From sequence record PZ445489.1: DNA of 64,000 bases; one strand, written 5' to 3'. The position numbers and the translations under genes are program-made. The notes under the pieces are model-generated. The model was not told the DNA's origin, did not search any database, and saw only the letters and a list, made by a program, of their open reading frames with translations. Positions 23,752-31,050 of the stretch are shown one piece after another (positions within the stretch are counted from its first letter, which is position 1; every line of letters begins with the position of its first letter). Source of the stretch: a phage.

Positions 23752-23829
23752 GGTTCTCAAGCTCATATGGTATGAGCACCCGGCTCATAACCGGAAGGTA
23801 CGTAGGTTCGAATCCTCGGGGAGCCACCA
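23752..23829 (+). tRNA. tRNA with anticodon CAT (Met, fMet or Ile2 undetermined)
   Basis: Acceptor ggttctc/gggagcc (2 G-U), anticodon loop CTCATAA, T-loop TTCGAAT, CCA; T-stem has 2 mismatches. Confidence 0.55.
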
Positions 23830-24333: not shown

Positions 24334-24410
24334 GGGGGTGTAATCGAATTGGCATAGGTACTGGACTTAAAATTCAGGTTTTGTGGGTTCGAATCCCACC
24401 ACCCCTACCA
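24334..24410 (+). tRNA. tRNA, anticodon TAA (Leu codon UUA) with short variable loop
   Basis: Acceptor gggggtg/cacccct, anticodon stem ctgga/ttcag, loop CTTAAAA, T-loop TTCGAAT, CCA. Confidence 0.55.
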
Positions 24411-26554: not shown

Positions 26555-26902
26555 ATGATTAATGCTAAAGAAGAATTGTTACTTGCCCTAAAGAATACTA
26601 ATTCTGAAGTTAAGTGTATTAAGATAGAATTCGGTTATTATGGAGACAAAGAAGTTTGGGTATTACCCGTAGGTTATACAGAAAAAGATATTGAAGATTT
26701 TCTAAATAATCTAGACTTTAAATATGATTCTGGTTTCGGTGGACAATTGCTTTATGGTAACGTATGGTTTACTGATGGAACTTGGTTAGAACGTGGTGAA
26801 TATGATGGTTCTGAATGGTGGGAATATAAGACTACACCAGCAATTCCAGAGGAATGCCGAACAATTAATGGTGAAGTAGATCGTACTTTACTATTAAATT
26901 AA
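26555..26902 (+). CDS. hypothetical protein (115 aa)
   Basis: ORF. Confidence 0.5.
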   Translation: MINAKEELLLALKNTNSEVKCIKIEFGYYGDKEVWVLPVGYTEKDIEDFLNNLDFKYDSGFGGQLLYGNVWFTDGTWLERGEYDGSEWWEYKTTPAIPEECRTINGEVDRTLLLN

Positions 26903-27024
26903 CAAAATCTCAGTGCAGAACACGGAGCTAGCAATTCGGAAGTGCTGACTCATGATAAGCTGCCTATGTACTTGCGAAGCGGTCGTGTCCAAGACTCGGA
27001 CTCTTGCACTGAAAACAATCAAAC

Positions 27025-27145
27025 ATTCTAGCGTGGTTGATGGGGAAACCAGCTTGGCTAGGGCAGAAGCTCGTTCGATTCGAGTGAAAGAATGGTTCTC
27101 GTAAGTCCGCACAAGTGATAGCAGGTTCGAGTCCTGTCTAGAATG
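27025..27145 (+). ncRNA. tRNA-like RNA with about 50-nt internal expansion (about 121 nt)
   Basis: Perfect 7-bp acceptor pairing attctag/ctagaat 113 nt apart, canonical T-arm gcagg-TTCGAGT-cctgt, D-arm-like hairpin; no normal anticodon arm. Confidence 0.35.
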
Positions 27146-27334
27146 ACATATTCTGGAGGTTTTGTGAATTACAAAGAATTAGATCTTTTAGCAAATAAAT
27201 TCACAGAGCTATCTGATAACGTTGTATCAAAGGACTCCAACATAGATAATTTTATTACTGAATATCGTGATGGTATAATCTCTAAACAAGAGTTGTTAGA
27301 TAAAACGTATAAATATTTAAAGGGGTTCAGCTAA
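27143..27334 (+). CDS. hypothetical protein (63 aa)
   Basis: ORF; start overlaps end of tRNA-like element; weak RBS. Confidence 0.35.
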   Translation: MTYSGGFVNYKELDLLANKFTELSDNVVSKDSNIDNFITEYRDGIISKQELLDKTYKYLKGFS

Positions 27335-28395: not shown

Positions 28396-28764
28396 TTGCA
28401 AATGCAATTATCAAACAAGATTCAAGGTTATTTCGGTCATGTGACAATGGAGTTCGCATTGCAGCATGGCTGGGATATGGAAAAAGATCTATCGGAATTT
28501 TATGAGTCTCATAAAGAGATTGATCTTAGTTCTGTCTATTTGGGATTATCTACTGGTCAAGAACTTACAGAATATGATGTATTCAAGGCAAGTCAAGGTG
28601 AGATAACACCTAGTTTTGCCGAGTTCTGGCTAGGAATTACCTTGAAGGATAATGCACCAGATGAAGGTGTGGTTATGCAAAGTATGCACTCTGGAAGCTC
28701 TGATTACCTTTACGTTCGTGATGTAAAGGAACTACAGGAAATCGCTAAAAATGTACTTGCTTAA
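28396..28764 (+). CDS. hypothetical protein (122 aa)
   Basis: ORF with AAGGAA RBS. Confidence 0.5.
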   Translation: MQMQLSNKIQGYFGHVTMEFALQHGWDMEKDLSEFYESHKEIDLSSVYLGLSTGQELTEYDVFKASQGEITPSFAEFWLGITLKDNAPDEGVVMQSMHSGSSDYLYVRDVKELQEIAKNVLA

Positions 28765-28803
28765 TGCTTAATTTCTTGTTATAATATTTATATAAATTGA
28801 TGC
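28743..28803 (+). promoter_or_regulatory. T5-type promoter (overlaps 3' end of CDS)
   Basis: TTGCTT 28757-28762, 17-nt spacer, TATAAT 28780-28785. Confidence 0.6.
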
Positions 28804-29124
28804 GAAAATAGCTGCCTAGATACCAGGTGTATGACGTCTACACTAGCAGAGCTACCGAAAAAGAGATCCTCAGGATAAACGTCGTAGCAAAATTAGTCTG
28901 GTATCCATCAATTTAGTTCACTAAGGTATTAGCTCGACCTAGGACTGGCTGCCAAAAAGCACGATCCCTACAATTCGGGAGAAGTTCTAGATTAGTCCAC
29001 TAGATTCAGCGGCAACTGAATAGTGTATCGGGTTTGCGAGATGACGCAGTTCCTTCCGCTCGAAGCGAAGGTGCTGTAGTTACGCCGAGCTAATAGCCTT
29101 AGTAAACTTACAGGGGTTAACGCA

Positions 29125-29511
29125 GTGTGTACAAAAACATGTAGAGCCTGTGGGAATGAATATCCGTTAACAACCGAATATTTTTATTCGAATGGATTTA
29201 CTCCTAATGGCACAAAGAAGTGGAAGCCAACATGTAAAGCATGTGAAAAAGCTGAACGAGTAGCTGGACATGAAGAATTAATTAAAGAAGTATTTCCTGT
29301 ATTAGAATGTAGTATTTGTGGATATAATAGGTGTAAACAAGCCCTAGATTTCCACCGTACTAATCCAGAAGAAAAGGAATACTCCATTGCAAGGTTTAGA
29401 ACTTCTCGTAGAAACAGAGAAGTAGTAATAGCAGAACTTAAAAAGTGCGTACTATTATGCTCTAACTGCCATAGAGAAGTACATGCTGGATTAATAAATT
29501 TGGGCGAATAG
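29125..29511 (+). CDS. HNH endonuclease
   Basis: C-terminal LLCSNCHREVHAG HNH motif plus CxxC pairs; GTG start; stop codon lies inside tRNA-Ala acceptor stem. Confidence 0.6.
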   Translation: MCTKTCRACGNEYPLTTEYFYSNGFTPNGTKKWKPTCKACEKAERVAGHEELIKEVFPVLECSICGYNRCKQALDFHRTNPEEKEYSIARFRTSRRNREVVIAELKKCVLLCSNCHREVHAGLINLGE

Positions 29512-29577: not shown

Positions 29578-29582
29578 ATACG

Positions 29583-29659
29583 CGTGATTGATGGAATTGG
29601 CATACATACCGTCCTTAGAAGTCGGGTTTTGAGGGTTCGAATCCCTTGTCACGCACCAA
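29583..29659 (+). tRNA. tRNA, anticodon TAG (Leu codon CUA) with short variable loop
   Basis: Acceptor gcgtgat/gtcacgc, D-loop AATTGGCAT shared with tRNA at 24334, loop CTTAGAA, T-loop TTCGAAT, CCA. Confidence 0.55.
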
Positions 29660-29771
29660 ATTTGATGGTCAGAGTAAATTAAACCTACTATCTCGGTTGA
29701 GCTGTTTTAATGGGTTCGAATCCCAGCGAGGCGTAACTGCCTGGTGTGATAGAGGCATCATCTTATTATTG

Positions 29772-29862
29772 GAAGAGCAAATCGAATTGGCGACGAAAAC
29801 CGCTTGGAAAGTGGCTGACTGGTAAAACGGCTTGAGAGTTCAAATCTCTCCTCTTCCGCCAA
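29772..29862 (+). tRNA. tRNA-Ser (anticodon GGA)
   Basis: Acceptor ggaagag/ctcttcc, anticodon loop TTGGAAA, 18-nt variable arm, T-arm gagag-TTCAAAT-ctctc, CCA; architecture parallels E. coli tRNA-Ser. Confidence 0.65.
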
Positions 29863-29868
29863 ATAATA

Positions 29869-29958
29869 GAAGATAGGACGTAGTGGTACGTAACTGGTCT
29901 TGAAAACCAGCCCGCTGTAGCGATACGGTGATGGTTCGACTCCATTATCTTCTGCCAA
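29869..29958 (+). tRNA. tRNA-Ser (anticodon TGA)
   Basis: Acceptor agaagat/atcttct, perfect anticodon stem ctggt/accag, loop CTTGAAA, 19-nt variable arm, T-loop TTCGACT, CCA. Confidence 0.7.
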
Positions 29959-29977
29959 TTAGCTATAAGGAAACCTT

Positions 29978-30151
29978 ATGAGCAAAACAGTTACTGTAAC
30001 AATGAAGGATGGCAAAAAATTTAAAGCATGTCTTCATGAAACAGATAAGGGATGGATGGCTTACTTGCCACACCTAGATTCCACCGGGTATGGAATGACC
30101 CAACGTGAAGCTATTGTTGATGCTTTAAATGAGGCTTCTGCTGGTTTATAA
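29978..30151 (+). CDS. small protein (57 aa), possible HicB-like fold
   Basis: ATG after AAGGAAACC RBS; KDGKKFKACLHETDKGWMAYLPHLDSTGYG loosely recalls HicB-type antitoxin N-termini; unverified. Confidence 0.3.
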   Translation: MSKTVTVTMKDGKKFKACLHETDKGWMAYLPHLDSTGYGMTQREAIVDALNEASAGL

Positions 30152-30520
30152 AAAATTCTTGAAGTATGCCGGAATCGGTAGACGGGGCTGCCTAAAAGGT
30201 TTATAGGGAACATCCACTCCCTGCAACATACCTCATAAAGCGGCTGAGATAAATGGTCTATCTCGTGAAGGTTCAAGTCCTTCTGCTTCTTGATACATCT
30301 ATGGCTCAAAGTGTAACGGTGCTATTTGATGCTCTTGGTAAGACTTCCCCGACATGCGTTCGGGAGTAAGCTGCTAAGACTAGAGTAGAAGAGTTTCTGA
30401 GAGCCGCCACAATTGAAAATTCGTACTCGTCTTGAGCTGCGTGCAATAGGAGATAACTTGATTAGTATTCTAGAACATGCTAATTGAGGAAGGTTTCGCT
30501 AACCCTGCGAGTTTTCAATT

Positions 30521-30597
30521 GTGGCTATATCATAATTGGTTAATGATCCTGATTGTGAATCAGGCCTATGTGGATTCGAATTCCACTAGCCACCCCA
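30521..30597 (+). tRNA. tRNA-His (anticodon GTG)
   Basis: Acceptor gtggcta/tagccac, D-stem tcat/atga, perfect anticodon stem cctga/tcagg, loop TTGTGAA, T-arm gtgga-TTCGAAT-tccac, CCA. Confidence 0.75.
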
Positions 30598-30622
30598 AAT
30601 TAACTTAAATAGGAAATAAAAT

Positions 30623-30974: not shown

Positions 30975-31050
30975 GCGGTTAAGCACACGGGTTGTGTCGC
31001 AGGCCTTCCAAGCCTCGCTGAGTAGGGTTCGATTCCCTCTAGCCGCTCCA
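30975..31050 (+). tRNA. tRNA-Gly (anticodon TCC)
   Basis: Acceptor gcggtta/tagccgc, anticodon loop CTTCCAA, T-loop TTCGATT, CCA. Confidence 0.6.

What the first reader, a model, noticed from the sequence alone, without database searches (positions are those of the whole stretch)
29690..30520. Orphan T-arm-like hairpins and a 370-nt ORF-free stretch inside the tRNA cluster
Canonical-looking T-arms at about 29711-29727 (tggg-TTCGAAT-ccca) and 30267-30283 (gaagg-TTCAAGT-ccttc, preceded by a 7-bp hairpin) have no pairing partner for the adjacent acceptor strand within 150 nt. The 30152-30520 interval has no ORF. These may be decayed tRNA genes or parts of larger structured RNAs.
Basis: seen in the sequence. 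Interest (0 to 1): 0.45.

Follow-up and report, generated by a model that had tools for sequence, protein, structure and literature searches.

The report
Phage T5-family stable tRNA-like RNAs
The flagged stretch of this T5-like phage holds three non-coding RNAs already annotated in phages T5 and BF23 (function still unknown) plus one conserved, tRNA-arm-bearing structured RNA that no fetched genome record annotates.

Summary
The window is the tRNA region of a T5-like phage (Tequintavirus). The 370-nt ORF-free stretch matches three consecutive RNAs annotated in the T5, BF23 and phage 5 GenBank records. They are RNA1 ("tRNA-like RNA", about 30158-30302), RNA I (30303-30409) and RNA III (30414-30519), and they abut tRNA-His.

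The second T-arm belongs to RNA1. RNA1 is a class-II, tRNA-Leu-like cloverleaf. A 48-nt two-helix extension with an invariant 10-nt loop replaces the anticodon loop, and no CCA is encoded. Covariation across four phage genera supports this fold.

The first T-arm lies in a 112-nt element (29659-29770) between tRNA-Leu(UAG) and tRNA-Ser(GGA). No record I inspected annotates it, and T5 lacks it. It is conserved in Escherichia, Salmonella, Klebsiella, Pectobacterium and Erwinia phages. Compensatory changes support three helices: a long-range 5-bp stem, a T-loop hairpin and a second hairpin.

All four are most likely cut from one polycistronic tRNA transcript by host RNases. What they do is unknown; tRNA mimicry is my best guess. 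This is mostly known biology, with one modest new member.

The parts
29659..29770 (+). Leu-Ser ('LS') element: a 112-nt conserved structured RNA between tRNA-Leu(UAG) and tRNA-Ser(GGA), not annotated in any record inspected. Structured core is 29681-29765.
   Evidence: Matches in 249 phage records, 168 of them at 99% identity or more, and about 75-80% identity in Klebsiella and Pectobacterium phages. No RNA feature lies under the match in BF23, phage 5, DT571/2 or NBSal005. It is absent from the T5 locus, where an HNH gene sits. A covariance model finds one copy per genome at 107-109 bits.
29688..29752 (+). LS long-range helix: CUAUC at 29688-29692 pairs with GAUAG at 29748-29752 and encloses a three-way junction.
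   Evidence: 100% paired in 9 distinct sequences. Three of the 5 pairs change on both sides (UAUC/GAUA, UGCU/AGUA, GGCU/AGUC, UACU/AGUA).
29711..29725 (+). LS T-arm-like hairpin: stem 29711-29714 with 29722-29725, invariant loop UUCGAAU.
   Evidence: Two of the 4 stem pairs covary (UGGG/CCCA, CGGG/CCCG, CAGG/CCUG, with a CGGG/CCUG intermediate). Similarity to tRNAs is limited to about 20 nt, covering the variable loop and T-arm.
29726..29745 (+). LS hairpin H2: GCGAGGCG at 29726-29733 pairs with UGCCUGGU at 29738-29745, loop UAAC. It uses the strand that would be the acceptor 3' strand in a tRNA.
   Evidence: Two pairs change on both sides (A-U to G-C; G-U to U-A). 96.8% of cells are paired.
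29771..29861 (+). tRNA-Ser(GGA), context only. ARAGORN misses it and Rfam scores it weakly.
   Evidence: Annotated as tRNAS2 in BF23, phage 5 and T5. It is 99% identical to the BF23 gene. ARAGORN does not call it. It scores 19.7 bits against the tRNA-Sec model.
30158..30302 (+). RNA1, annotated as 'tRNA-like RNA with unknown functions'. The cloverleaf core is 30160-30291. Ends are transferred from the BF23 and phage 5 annotation.
   Evidence: Homologous to misc_RNA rna1 of AJ604530, AJ604531 and AY692264. The 35-pair structure is 94.8% paired against 40-53% when the partners are slid, and 12 pairs change on both sides.
30161..30289 (+). RNA1 acceptor-like stem: GAAGUA at 30161-30166 pairs with UGCUUC at 30284-30289. 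It is followed by UUGAUA with no CCA.
   Evidence: 100% paired, with covariation at 3 of 6 pairs (for example GGAAUA/UGUUCC in T5).
30196..30234 (+). RNA1 extension that replaces the anticodon loop: helix P2 (30196-30200 with 30230-30234) and hairpin P3 (30204-30208 with 30219-30223), with an invariant 10-nt loop AACAUCCACU at 30209-30218.
   Evidence: The loop is invariant in all 14 sequences from four genera, while the P3 stem covaries at 3 of 5 pairs. The position that would be U33 varies among U, G and C.
30246..30283 (+). RNA1 long variable arm (30246-30251 with 30259-30264, invariant loop AAUGGUC) and T-arm (30267-30271 with 30279-30283).
30303..30409 (+). RNA I, 107 nt. It has an acceptor-like terminal helix, GGCUC at the 5' end with GAGCC near the 3' end, followed by an encoded G-CCA.
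   Evidence: Homologous to misc_RNA rnaI. The ends are invariant. The central hairpin is replaced by a compensating one in Epseptimaviruses.
30414..30519 (+). RNA III, 106 nt: a long hairpin-type RNA with a 10-bp terminal stem and a 2-nt 3' overhang. It abuts tRNA-His.
   Evidence: Homologous to misc_RNA rnaIII. The folding energy z-score is -3.5. The terminal stem is kept in relatives whose interior is unrelated.
30406..30525 (+). 18-bp helix in the precursor: GCCACAAUUGAAAAUUCG at 30406-30423 pairs with CGAGUUUUCAAUUGUGGC at 30508-30525. It joins the CCA end of RNA I to the first five bases of tRNA-His.
   Evidence: Read directly from the sequence. The outer 12 bp are invariant in all 13 aligned phages.

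Best explanation
The interval holds four non-coding, structured RNAs embedded in the early tRNA operon of a T5-like phage. Three are the homologues of RNA1, RNA I and RNA III annotated in T5 and BF23. The fourth, the Leu-Ser element, is an unannotated relative of the same kind.

Shown here:
- Sequence homology and identical gene order with the annotated RNAs.
- Structures supported by covariation for RNA1 and the LS core.
- RNA1 is a tRNA-Leu-like class-II cloverleaf that cannot decode. It has no 7-nt anticodon loop, no conserved U33 and no encoded CCA.

Inferred:
- All four are transcribed from promoter P13b together with the flanking tRNAs.
- Host tRNA-processing enzymes cut them out.
- RNase P cuts at the base of the acceptor-like helices of RNA1 and RNA I and at tRNA-Ser and tRNA-His. 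These cuts would set the 3' ends of LS and RNA1.
- RNase III excises RNA III from the 18-bp precursor helix, because the annotated ends leave a 2-nt 3' overhang.

Function, which is speculative: the RNAs act as tRNA mimics. They would present T-loop and D-loop folds and invariant loops to a host or phage tRNA-binding partner, such as a modification enzyme, a synthetase or a tRNA-targeting defence nuclease, without taking part in decoding.

The confidence given refers to identity and non-coding structured-RNA nature. I put the processing route at about 0.5 and the mimic or decoy function at about 0.2.
For: Identity:
- The window region is 94-97% identical to BF23 and phage 5 and about 92% identical to T5 over the stretch.
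- Those records annotate rna1, rnaI and rnaIII in the same order directly before tRNA-His.

RNA1 fold:
- 35 pairs are 94.8% paired against 40-53% when partners are slid.
- 12 pairs change on both sides, and the loops are invariant across four genera.
- Rfam's tRNA model aligns the full cloverleaf but only at 25.2 bits with a 45-nt insertion.
- The D-arm resembles tRNA-Leu most closely.

LS fold:
- 16 pairs are 98.6% paired against 28-44% when slid, and 7 pairs change on both sides.
- There is one copy per genome.

Single transcription unit:
- BF23 annotates promoter P13b upstream of RNA 2H and the next promoter, P11, only after tRNA-Thr.
- The same promoter sequence and RNA 2H are present in the window.

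Processing:
- RNA1 and RNA I abut each other, as do RNA III and tRNA-His.
- RNA I ends in an encoded GCCA above a 5-bp helix.
- The RNA III ends map 2 bp apart across the 18-bp helix.

Non-coding:
- No conserved ORF, a 7-nt indel, and no Pfam hit.
Against: - I have no expression or end-mapping data. The ends are transferred from GenBank annotation, and I could not verify their experimental basis in the paper library.
- Nobody has shown that LS accumulates as a discrete RNA.
- LS covariation rests on about five lineages.
- Its closing stem (29663-29667 with 29756-29760) and the CAG/CUG stem are conserved but do not covary.
- The annotated 5' end of RNA1 lies 2-3 nt upstream of where a canonical RNase P cut would fall.
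- The elements are accessory. DT571/2 lacks RNA1, T5 lacks LS, and several Epseptimaviruses swap the RNA III slot.
- The T5 tRNA region is a dispensable deletion hotspot.
- I found no target for the invariant RNA1 loop inside the window.
Confidence: 0.85

Rival explanations
1. The hairpins are neutral remnants of decayed tRNA genes (pseudogenes) left by recombination or homing-endonuclease traffic in the tRNA cluster. They would have no function of their own.
For: - LS resembles tRNAs only over about 20 nt, covering the variable loop and T-arm.
- The region is a recombination hotspot.
- Phage SelmaRatti carries a deletion that fuses tRNA-Leu to LS at the shared GGGTTCGAATCCC.
- T5 has an HNH gene at the LS position.
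- The elements are present in some relatives and absent in others.
Against: - Stems keep pairing through double substitutions while loops stay invariant, across Tequintavirus, Epseptimavirus, Sugarlandvirus, Hongcheonvirus and an Erwinia phage.
- A decaying pseudogene would lose pairing instead.
- LS has a long-range helix with no tRNA counterpart, and it is 100% maintained.
Confidence: 0.07
2. The elements are cis-acting spacers. Their folds would exist only to guide ordered RNase P, RNase E or RNase III cleavage of the neighbouring tRNAs, for example by holding the tRNA-His 5' strand and the RNA I CCA end in one helix. The excised pieces would be by-products.
For: - The outer 12 bp of the helix joining RNA I and tRNA-His are invariant in 13 phages, even where the enclosed RNA III sequence is replaced by unrelated hairpins.
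- Every element abuts a tRNA or a tRNA-like end.
- LS always lies between tRNA-Leu(UAG) and tRNA-Ser(GGA).
Against: - Relatives without LS place tRNA-Leu and tRNA-Ser 6-17 nt apart, so those tRNAs do not need it.
- In DU_PP_V a small ORF separates LS from tRNA-Ser.
- A spacer role does not explain the invariant 10-nt and 7-nt loops of RNA1.
- In Klebsiella phages RNA1 sits in a different neighbourhood, after tRNA-Val.
Confidence: 0.2
3. The stretch encodes small proteins, as automated annotation suggests in many related genomes, where 'hypothetical protein' features overlap it.
For: - Several records place hypothetical-protein CDSs over the stretch.
- A 38-aa + strand ORF recurs in Tequintaviruses, and ORFs of 52-73 aa occur in Epseptimaviruses.
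Against: - ORF lengths and C-termini differ completely between relatives.
- A 7-nt indel lies inside the frame.
- Substitutions are compensatory for RNA pairing.
- There is no Pfam match.
- I see no Shine-Dalgarno sequence upstream of the recurring ATG (sequence).
- The curated T5 and BF23 records annotate RNAs here, not CDSs.
Confidence: 0.03
4. LS is a circularly permuted or closed-acceptor tRNA mimic. Hairpin H2 would be an acceptor stem capped by a loop and stacked on the T-arm, analogous to the tRNA-like module of bacterial YrlA (Y RNA-like A) RNAs.
For: - The strand that follows the T-arm and would be the acceptor 3' strand pairs with the next 8 nt, giving a 7-8 bp helix directly next to the T-stem.
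- An invariant GG lies in the junction strand, as in a D-loop.
Against: - ARAGORN finds no tRNA in artificially re-permuted LS sequences at default stringency, and only inconsistent calls at 80% stringency.
- There is no Rfam match of any kind at E up to 10, which includes Y-RNA and tRNA clan models if they are in the library.
- A proposed D-stem alternative is broken in the Klebsiella and Pectobacterium versions.
Confidence: 0.1

Closest known systems
RNA1, RNA I and RNA III of phages T5, BF23 and phage 5 (misc_RNA features in GenBank AY692264, AJ604530, AJ604531)
   Same: They are direct homologues: 85-99% identity, the same order RNA1 - RNA I - RNA III - tRNA-His, the same lengths (144/145, 107 and 106 nt), and the same position after the small ORF trn 2.14.
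   Different: Nothing essential differs. The window's RNA1 is 85.5% identical to T5's, and the differences are largely compensatory. The annotation gives no function ('unknown functions').
Other stable RNAs of the T5/BF23 tRNA region (RNA2 'tRNA-like', RNA IV, RNA 2H)
   Same: LS shares their setting and style. It sits inside the tRNA operon, is about 100-170 nt long, has a terminal closing helix and, like RNA2 and RNA IV, a T-arm-like hairpin near the 3' side.
   Different: LS has no detectable sequence similarity to them. It is not annotated in any record inspected and is missing from T5 itself. Its core is a three-way junction closed by a long-range 5-bp helix.
Class II tRNA-Leu
   Same: RNA1 has a 3-bp D-stem with a GAAUYGGUAGAC loop, a long variable arm, GUG before the T-stem, and a GGUUCAAGUCC T-loop.
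   Different: A 48-nt two-helix extension replaces the anticodon loop. There is no conserved U33, the discriminator position is U, no CCA is encoded, the first acceptor pair is U-U, and the Rfam score is below threshold.
Phage T4 species 1 and species 2 stable RNAs in the T4 tRNA cluster (recalled from memory)
   Same: They are phage-encoded stable RNAs of unknown function that are co-transcribed and co-processed with phage tRNAs.
   Different: I did not test sequence or structure similarity. T4 belongs to a different phage family.
Bacterial YrlA (Y RNA-like A) tRNA-like modules and tmRNA tRNA-like domains
   Same: They are non-decoding RNAs that carry a genuine T-loop within a tRNA-like fold.
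   Different: There is no Rfam hit to any such family. ARAGORN finds no tmRNA in the window. No tag ORF or Ro-binding helix was identified.

Membership tests
Canonical tRNA (Rfam RF00005 / ARAGORN) | Predictor score at or above threshold | tested here: not met
   ARAGORN makes no call in 29659-29770 or 30152-30520. Rfam's tRNA model gives 25.2 bits against a 29-bit gathering threshold for RNA1, and nothing for LS at E up to 10.
Canonical tRNA (Rfam RF00005 / ARAGORN) | Acceptor, D, T and (class II) variable arms forming a cloverleaf | tested here: met
   Met for RNA1 only. All four arms are present, and the acceptor and variable arms covary. LS has only a T-arm-like hairpin.
Canonical tRNA (Rfam RF00005 / ARAGORN) | 7-nt anticodon loop with conserved U33 | tested here: not met
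   In RNA1 the anticodon stem opens into 48 nt forming helices P2 and P3. The U33-equivalent position is U, G or C in different phages.
Canonical tRNA (Rfam RF00005 / ARAGORN) | 3' CCA, encoded as in the other tRNAs of this cluster | tested here: not met
   The RNA1 acceptor is followed by UUGAUA. The neighbouring tRNAs all end in CCA followed by AAU or similar. Addition of CCA after transcription cannot be tested here.
T5-family stable RNAs RNA1 / RNA I / RNA III | Sequence homology to the annotated RNAs | tested here: met
   Identity is 85-99% over the full lengths.
T5-family stable RNAs RNA1 / RNA I / RNA III | Same gene order and position, directly upstream of tRNA-His | tested here: met
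T5-family stable RNAs RNA1 / RNA I / RNA III | Accumulates as a discrete stable RNA in infected cells | not testable with these tools
   This rests on the GenBank notes ('stable RNA with unknown functions'). No RNA data were available.
T5-family stable RNAs (for the LS element) | Annotated or described as a stable RNA | tested here: not met
   No RNA feature covers LS in the BF23, phage 5, DT571/2, NBSal005, Klebsiella or Pectobacterium records. The feature columns list only tRNA edges, 'none' or hypothetical proteins.
tmRNA | tRNA-like domain plus a tag reading frame, detected by ARAGORN or Rfam | tested here: not met
   ARAGORN reports no tmRNA. Rfam reports none.
YrlA (Y RNA-like A) / bacterial Y RNA | Match to a curated Y-RNA covariance model | tested here: not met
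   No such hit at E up to 10 in 29600-30600.
Circularly permuted tRNA | Re-permuted sequence folds into a recognisable cloverleaf | tested here: not met
   ARAGORN finds 0 genes in 16 re-permuted constructs at default stringency. At 80% stringency the calls are inconsistent.
RNase III substrate (RNA III excision) | Long, near-perfect duplex spanning the cleavage sites | tested here: met
   There are 18 contiguous pairs, 30406-30423 with 30508-30525. This is slightly shorter than the roughly two helical turns typical of RNase III substrates (recalled from memory).
RNase III substrate (RNA III excision) | Staggered cuts that leave 2-nt 3' overhangs | tested here: inconclusive
   The annotated ends (BF23 2366 and 2471) map 2 bp apart across the helix. 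I could not verify that those ends were determined experimentally.

The most novel reading that the evidence does not exclude
RNA1, RNA2 and the newly delineated Leu-Ser element could be dedicated tRNA mimics. By presenting authentic T-loop and D-loop folds and invariant recognition loops, they would bind host factors aimed at tRNAs and so protect the phage's own tRNA supply. Candidate targets are defence nucleases such as the anticodon nuclease PrrC, the PARIS nuclease AriB or the retron Eco7 effector PtuAB, as well as modification enzymes and synthetases. Under this reading LS would be a previously unrecognised, independently folding stable RNA.
Probability: 0.15. Interest if true: 0.7.

Novelty: new member of a known kind. 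Interest (0 to 1): 0.3.

Why it matters
Most of the finding is already catalogued. RNA1, RNA I and RNA III have been annotated in T5-family GenBank records with 'unknown functions', so the ORF-free stretch is explained and ordinary for this phage group.

Three things are added here:
- A covariation-supported fold for RNA1. It shows RNA1 is a tRNA-Leu-derived mimic that cannot decode and whose loops are invariant across four genera.
- A conserved, unannotated T-loop RNA (LS) that T5 lacks. That absence probably explains why it was never named.
- A testable processing scheme.

Phage T5 tRNAs have recently been shown to neutralise tRNA-cleaving defence systems (PMC11464382; bioRxiv 10.1101/2023.03.15.532788). 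The neighbouring tRNA-like RNAs are therefore reasonable candidates for related roles. That link is conjecture.

Tried and rejected
- **Target for the RNA1 loop.** I searched the window for a complement of the invariant loop (AGTGGATGTT, 1 mismatch allowed). The 6 hits match the chance expectation of 4.2, and the only perfect hit is the loop itself.
- **Permuted-tRNA reading of LS.** Testing re-permuted sequences with ARAGORN was negative.
- **Wider distribution of LS.** Pattern scans of IMG/VR for the LS core found only T5-like genomes plus two false positives that are ordinary tRNA-Gln genes.
- **Wider distribution of RNA1.** A pattern scan for the RNA1 core found only T5-like genomes of about 110 kb in IMG/VR and nothing in 185,579 bacterial and archaeal genomes. 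This gives no sign of a host origin.
- **Rfam.** Permissive scans of 29600-30600 and 26900-27250 gave no family beyond sub-threshold tRNA and tRNA-Sec hits.
- **Pfam.** Scans of the flanking small ORFs and of the 82-aa minus-strand ORF gave no hits. The 'HicB family' label in record OR621298 is therefore unconfirmed.
- **Literature.** Searches for the original descriptions of the T5 stable RNAs found nothing in the held library.
- **MFE folding of LS.** Single-sequence folding is uninformative (z-score -0.24). Only comparative analysis revealed the structure.
- **Alternative D-stem in LS.** A UGAU/AUCA pairing was rejected because it breaks in the Klebsiella and Pectobacterium versions.
Full report
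**Where we are**

ARAGORN finds 23 tRNA genes and Rfam 24, all on the + strand between 20 and 32 kb. Megablast of 29400-30800 matches 528 phage records, essentially all T5-like Demerecviridae infecting Escherichia, Salmonella or Klebsiella. The window is the early tRNA region of a BF23-type Tequintavirus.

**The observation**

Both T-arm-like hairpins exist as described: 29711-29725 and 30267-30283.

A motif scan (G-TTCRANY-C closed by at least 4 pairs) finds 26 such hairpins. All are on the + strand, against 0.39 expected by chance. They are therefore not accidents.

Five hits fall outside the predictors' tRNAs:
- the two hairpins in the finding;
- one in an atypical tRNA-Gly(UCC) at about 30975-31050 that both predictors miss;
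- two in a stretch at 27026-27143, which corresponds to BF23's annotated 'RNA2, tRNA-like RNA'.

So every orphan T-arm in the window maps to an annotated T5-family RNA except the first one in the finding.

**The 370-nt ORF-free stretch**

The curated tRNA-region records of BF23 (AJ604530), phage 5 (AJ604531) and T5 (AY692264) annotate three misc_RNAs between a small ORF (trn 2.14) and tRNA-His. DT571/2 annotates RNA I and RNA III there.

| RNA | Annotation note | Length |
|---|---|---|
| rna1 | 'tRNA-like RNA with unknown functions' | 144-145 nt |
| rnaI | 'stable RNA' | 107 nt |
| rnaIII | 'stable RNA' | 106 nt |

BLAST transfers these features to the window:
- RNA1 at 30158-30302;
- RNA I at 30303-30409;
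- RNA III at 30414-30519.

The stretch matches 500 phage records. Only short ORFs occur in it. Their frames, lengths and C-termini are not conserved, and a 7-nt indel separates the Tequintavirus and Epseptimavirus versions of RNA I. There is no Pfam match. This part of the finding is already known.

**RNA1**

I aligned 14 sequences from Tequintavirus, Epseptimavirus, Sugarlandvirus (Klebsiella) and Hongcheonvirus (Pectobacterium). The alignment gives a class-II cloverleaf:
- acceptor stem 30161-30166 with 30284-30289;
- 3-bp D-stem with an invariant GAAUYGGUAGAC loop;
- 5-bp anticodon stem;
- long variable arm with an invariant AAUGGUC loop;
- T-arm at 30267-30283.

Of 35 pairs, 94.8% of cells are paired, against 40-53% when the partners are slid. 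Twelve pairs change on both sides.

The partner lies 117 nt upstream.

RNA1 has no anticodon loop. The anticodon stem opens into a 48-nt extension with two further helices. The terminal 10-nt loop, AACAUCCACU (30209-30218), is invariant in all 14 sequences, although the stem beneath it covaries at three pairs. The U33-equivalent position varies, no CCA is encoded, and the discriminator position is U.

Rfam's tRNA model sees the cloverleaf only at 25.2 bits and only by skipping 45 nt. The 5' part aligns best with tRNA-Leu. RNA1 is thus a tRNA-Leu-derived mimic that cannot decode. I found it only in T5-like genomes and in no bacterial genome.

**RNA I and RNA III**

RNA I begins GGCUC and ends GAGCC-G-CCA. 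This is a 5-bp acceptor-like helix with an encoded CCA, invariant in 13 phages. Its central hairpin is replaced by a different but equally paired sequence in Epseptimaviruses.

RNA III folds into a long hairpin-type structure (z-score -3.5). Its terminal stem continues in the precursor into an 18-bp helix, 30406-30423 with 30508-30525. That helix pairs the CCA end of RNA I with the first bases of tRNA-His.

The outer 12 bp of this helix are invariant. This holds even in EH2, SuperGirl and TrudiGerster, where the enclosed sequence is unrelated.

The annotated RNA III ends lie 2 bp apart across the helix and leave a 2-nt 3' overhang. That is the geometry of RNase III cleavage (established knowledge). 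This is an inference from annotation, not a measurement.

**The first T-arm: the Leu-Ser (LS) element**

The 112 nt between tRNA-Leu(UAG) and tRNA-Ser(GGA) carry no feature in any record I opened. T5 itself has an HNH endonuclease gene there, together with a different tRNA-Leu.

Distribution:
- It matches 249 phage records.
- It has 75-92% identical counterparts in Klebsiella Sugarlandviruses, Pectobacterium phage DU_PP_V and Erwinia phage KEY.
- In those relatives, wherever the upstream tRNA is annotated it is tRNA-Leu.

Single-sequence folding is uninformative. Comparison is not. Nine distinct sequences support three helices:
- a long-range 5-bp helix (29688-29692 with 29748-29752), 100% paired, with three pairs changed on both sides;
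- the T-like hairpin, with two covarying pairs and an invariant UUCGAAU loop;
- an adjacent 7-8 bp hairpin (29726-29745), with two covarying pairs.

Overall, 98.6% of cells are paired, against 28-44% when slid.

The strand that would be the acceptor 3' strand in a tRNA pairs downstream instead.

A covariance model finds exactly one copy per genome and none in the T5 locus. Similarity to real tRNAs covers only the variable loop and T-arm. A permuted-tRNA reading failed its test.

Caveats:
- Only about five independent lineages are available.
- Two further conserved stems do not covary.
- There is no evidence that LS accumulates as an RNA.

**How it probably works**

BF23's annotation places promoter P13b upstream of RNA 2H and the next promoter only after tRNA-Thr. 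The same promoter and RNA 2H are in the window at about 28758-29085. All four elements are therefore transcribed together with the tRNAs.

Their abutting ends and acceptor-like helices suggest excision by host RNase P, and by RNase III for RNA III. I put this processing route at about 0.5.

Function is unknown. The region is a dispensable deletion hotspot in T5 (PMC12483538), and the elements come and go among relatives. That pattern fits accessory, host-specific roles. T5 tRNAs are known to counter tRNA-cleaving defences (PMC11464382; bioRxiv 10.1101/2023.03.15.532788, listed). A tRNA-mimic or decoy role is therefore the most attractive hypothesis, but it is untested (about 0.15-0.2).

**Verdict**

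The 'larger structured RNAs' reading is right. Most of the finding is already annotated biology. One element, LS, is a new member of the same kind.

Noticed in passing
window 27026-27143: This stretch has two T-arm-like hairpins (27069-27085 and 27121-27137) inside a 7-bp acceptor-like closing stem, ATTCTAG with CTAGAAT. It has no Rfam hit. It corresponds to BF23's annotated 'rna2, tRNA-like RNA with unknown functions'.
   Followed up: yes
window 30975-31050: A tRNA-Gly(UCC) with an aberrant D-arm is missed by both ARAGORN and Rfam at gathering threshold. BF23 and T5 annotate a tRNA-Gly (tRNAG1) at the syntenic position after tRNA-Gln.
   Followed up: partly
window 29771-29861 and 23752-23826: ARAGORN misses tRNA-Ser(GGA), and Rfam scores it only 19.7 bits. 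The BF23 note says it cannot be converted into an amber suppressor. Separately, Rfam calls a tRNA at 23752-23826 (40.3 bits) that ARAGORN misses.
   Followed up: partly
window 29582-29658 and 24334-24410; L003 143-227: Both tRNA-Leu genes of this phage are only 77 nt and lack the long variable arm expected of tRNA-Leu. T5's tRNA-Leu(UAG) is an 85-nt class-II molecule. NBSal005 labels the 77-nt gene 'tRNA-OTHER'.
   Followed up: no
L033 1128-1266 (Escherichia phage SelmaRatti): A deletion fuses the 5' part of tRNA-Leu(UAG) to the 3' part of LS exactly at the shared GGGTTCGAATCCC. This shows that repeated T-arms act as recombination substrates in this cluster. The LS model still scores 57 bits on the hybrid.
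   Followed up: partly
L029 1650-1817, L030 1649-1886, L031 1649-1816: In some Epseptimaviruses the RNA III slot holds unrelated hairpin sequences of different length. The flanking inverted repeat GCCACAATTGAA...TTCAATTGTGGC is unchanged. The slot behaves like an exchangeable cassette.
   Followed up: partly
window 28795-28913: Compared with BF23, about 110 extra bases lie between promoter P13b and RNA 2H. They contain an inverted repeat (GATACCAG...CTGGTATC).
   Followed up: no
window 28914-29085 and L001 1264-1435 (RNA 2H): The annotated ends of RNA 2H also lie in a long precursor helix with a roughly 2-bp stagger, allowing for one bulged G. This suggests the same RNase III-type excision as for RNA III.
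   Followed up: partly
window 29125-29511: A 128-aa cysteine-rich ORF, HNH-like by eye but with no Pfam hit, lies between RNA 2H and tRNA-Ala and overlaps the first bases of tRNA-Ala. BF23 has no gene at this position.
   Followed up: partly
window 29978-30151: The 57-aa ORF directly upstream of RNA1 is labelled 'HicB family protein' in record OR621298, but it has no Pfam match here. RNA1 occurs without this ORF in TrudiGerster and in Klebsiella phages, so the two are not linked.
   Followed up: partly
L006 4108-4741 and 2794-3052; L005 4067-4551: Klebsiella and Pectobacterium relatives have further unannotated ORF-free stretches of 250-600 nt around their RNA1 homologues and between tRNA-Ser and tRNA-His. 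These may hold additional structured RNAs.
   Followed up: no
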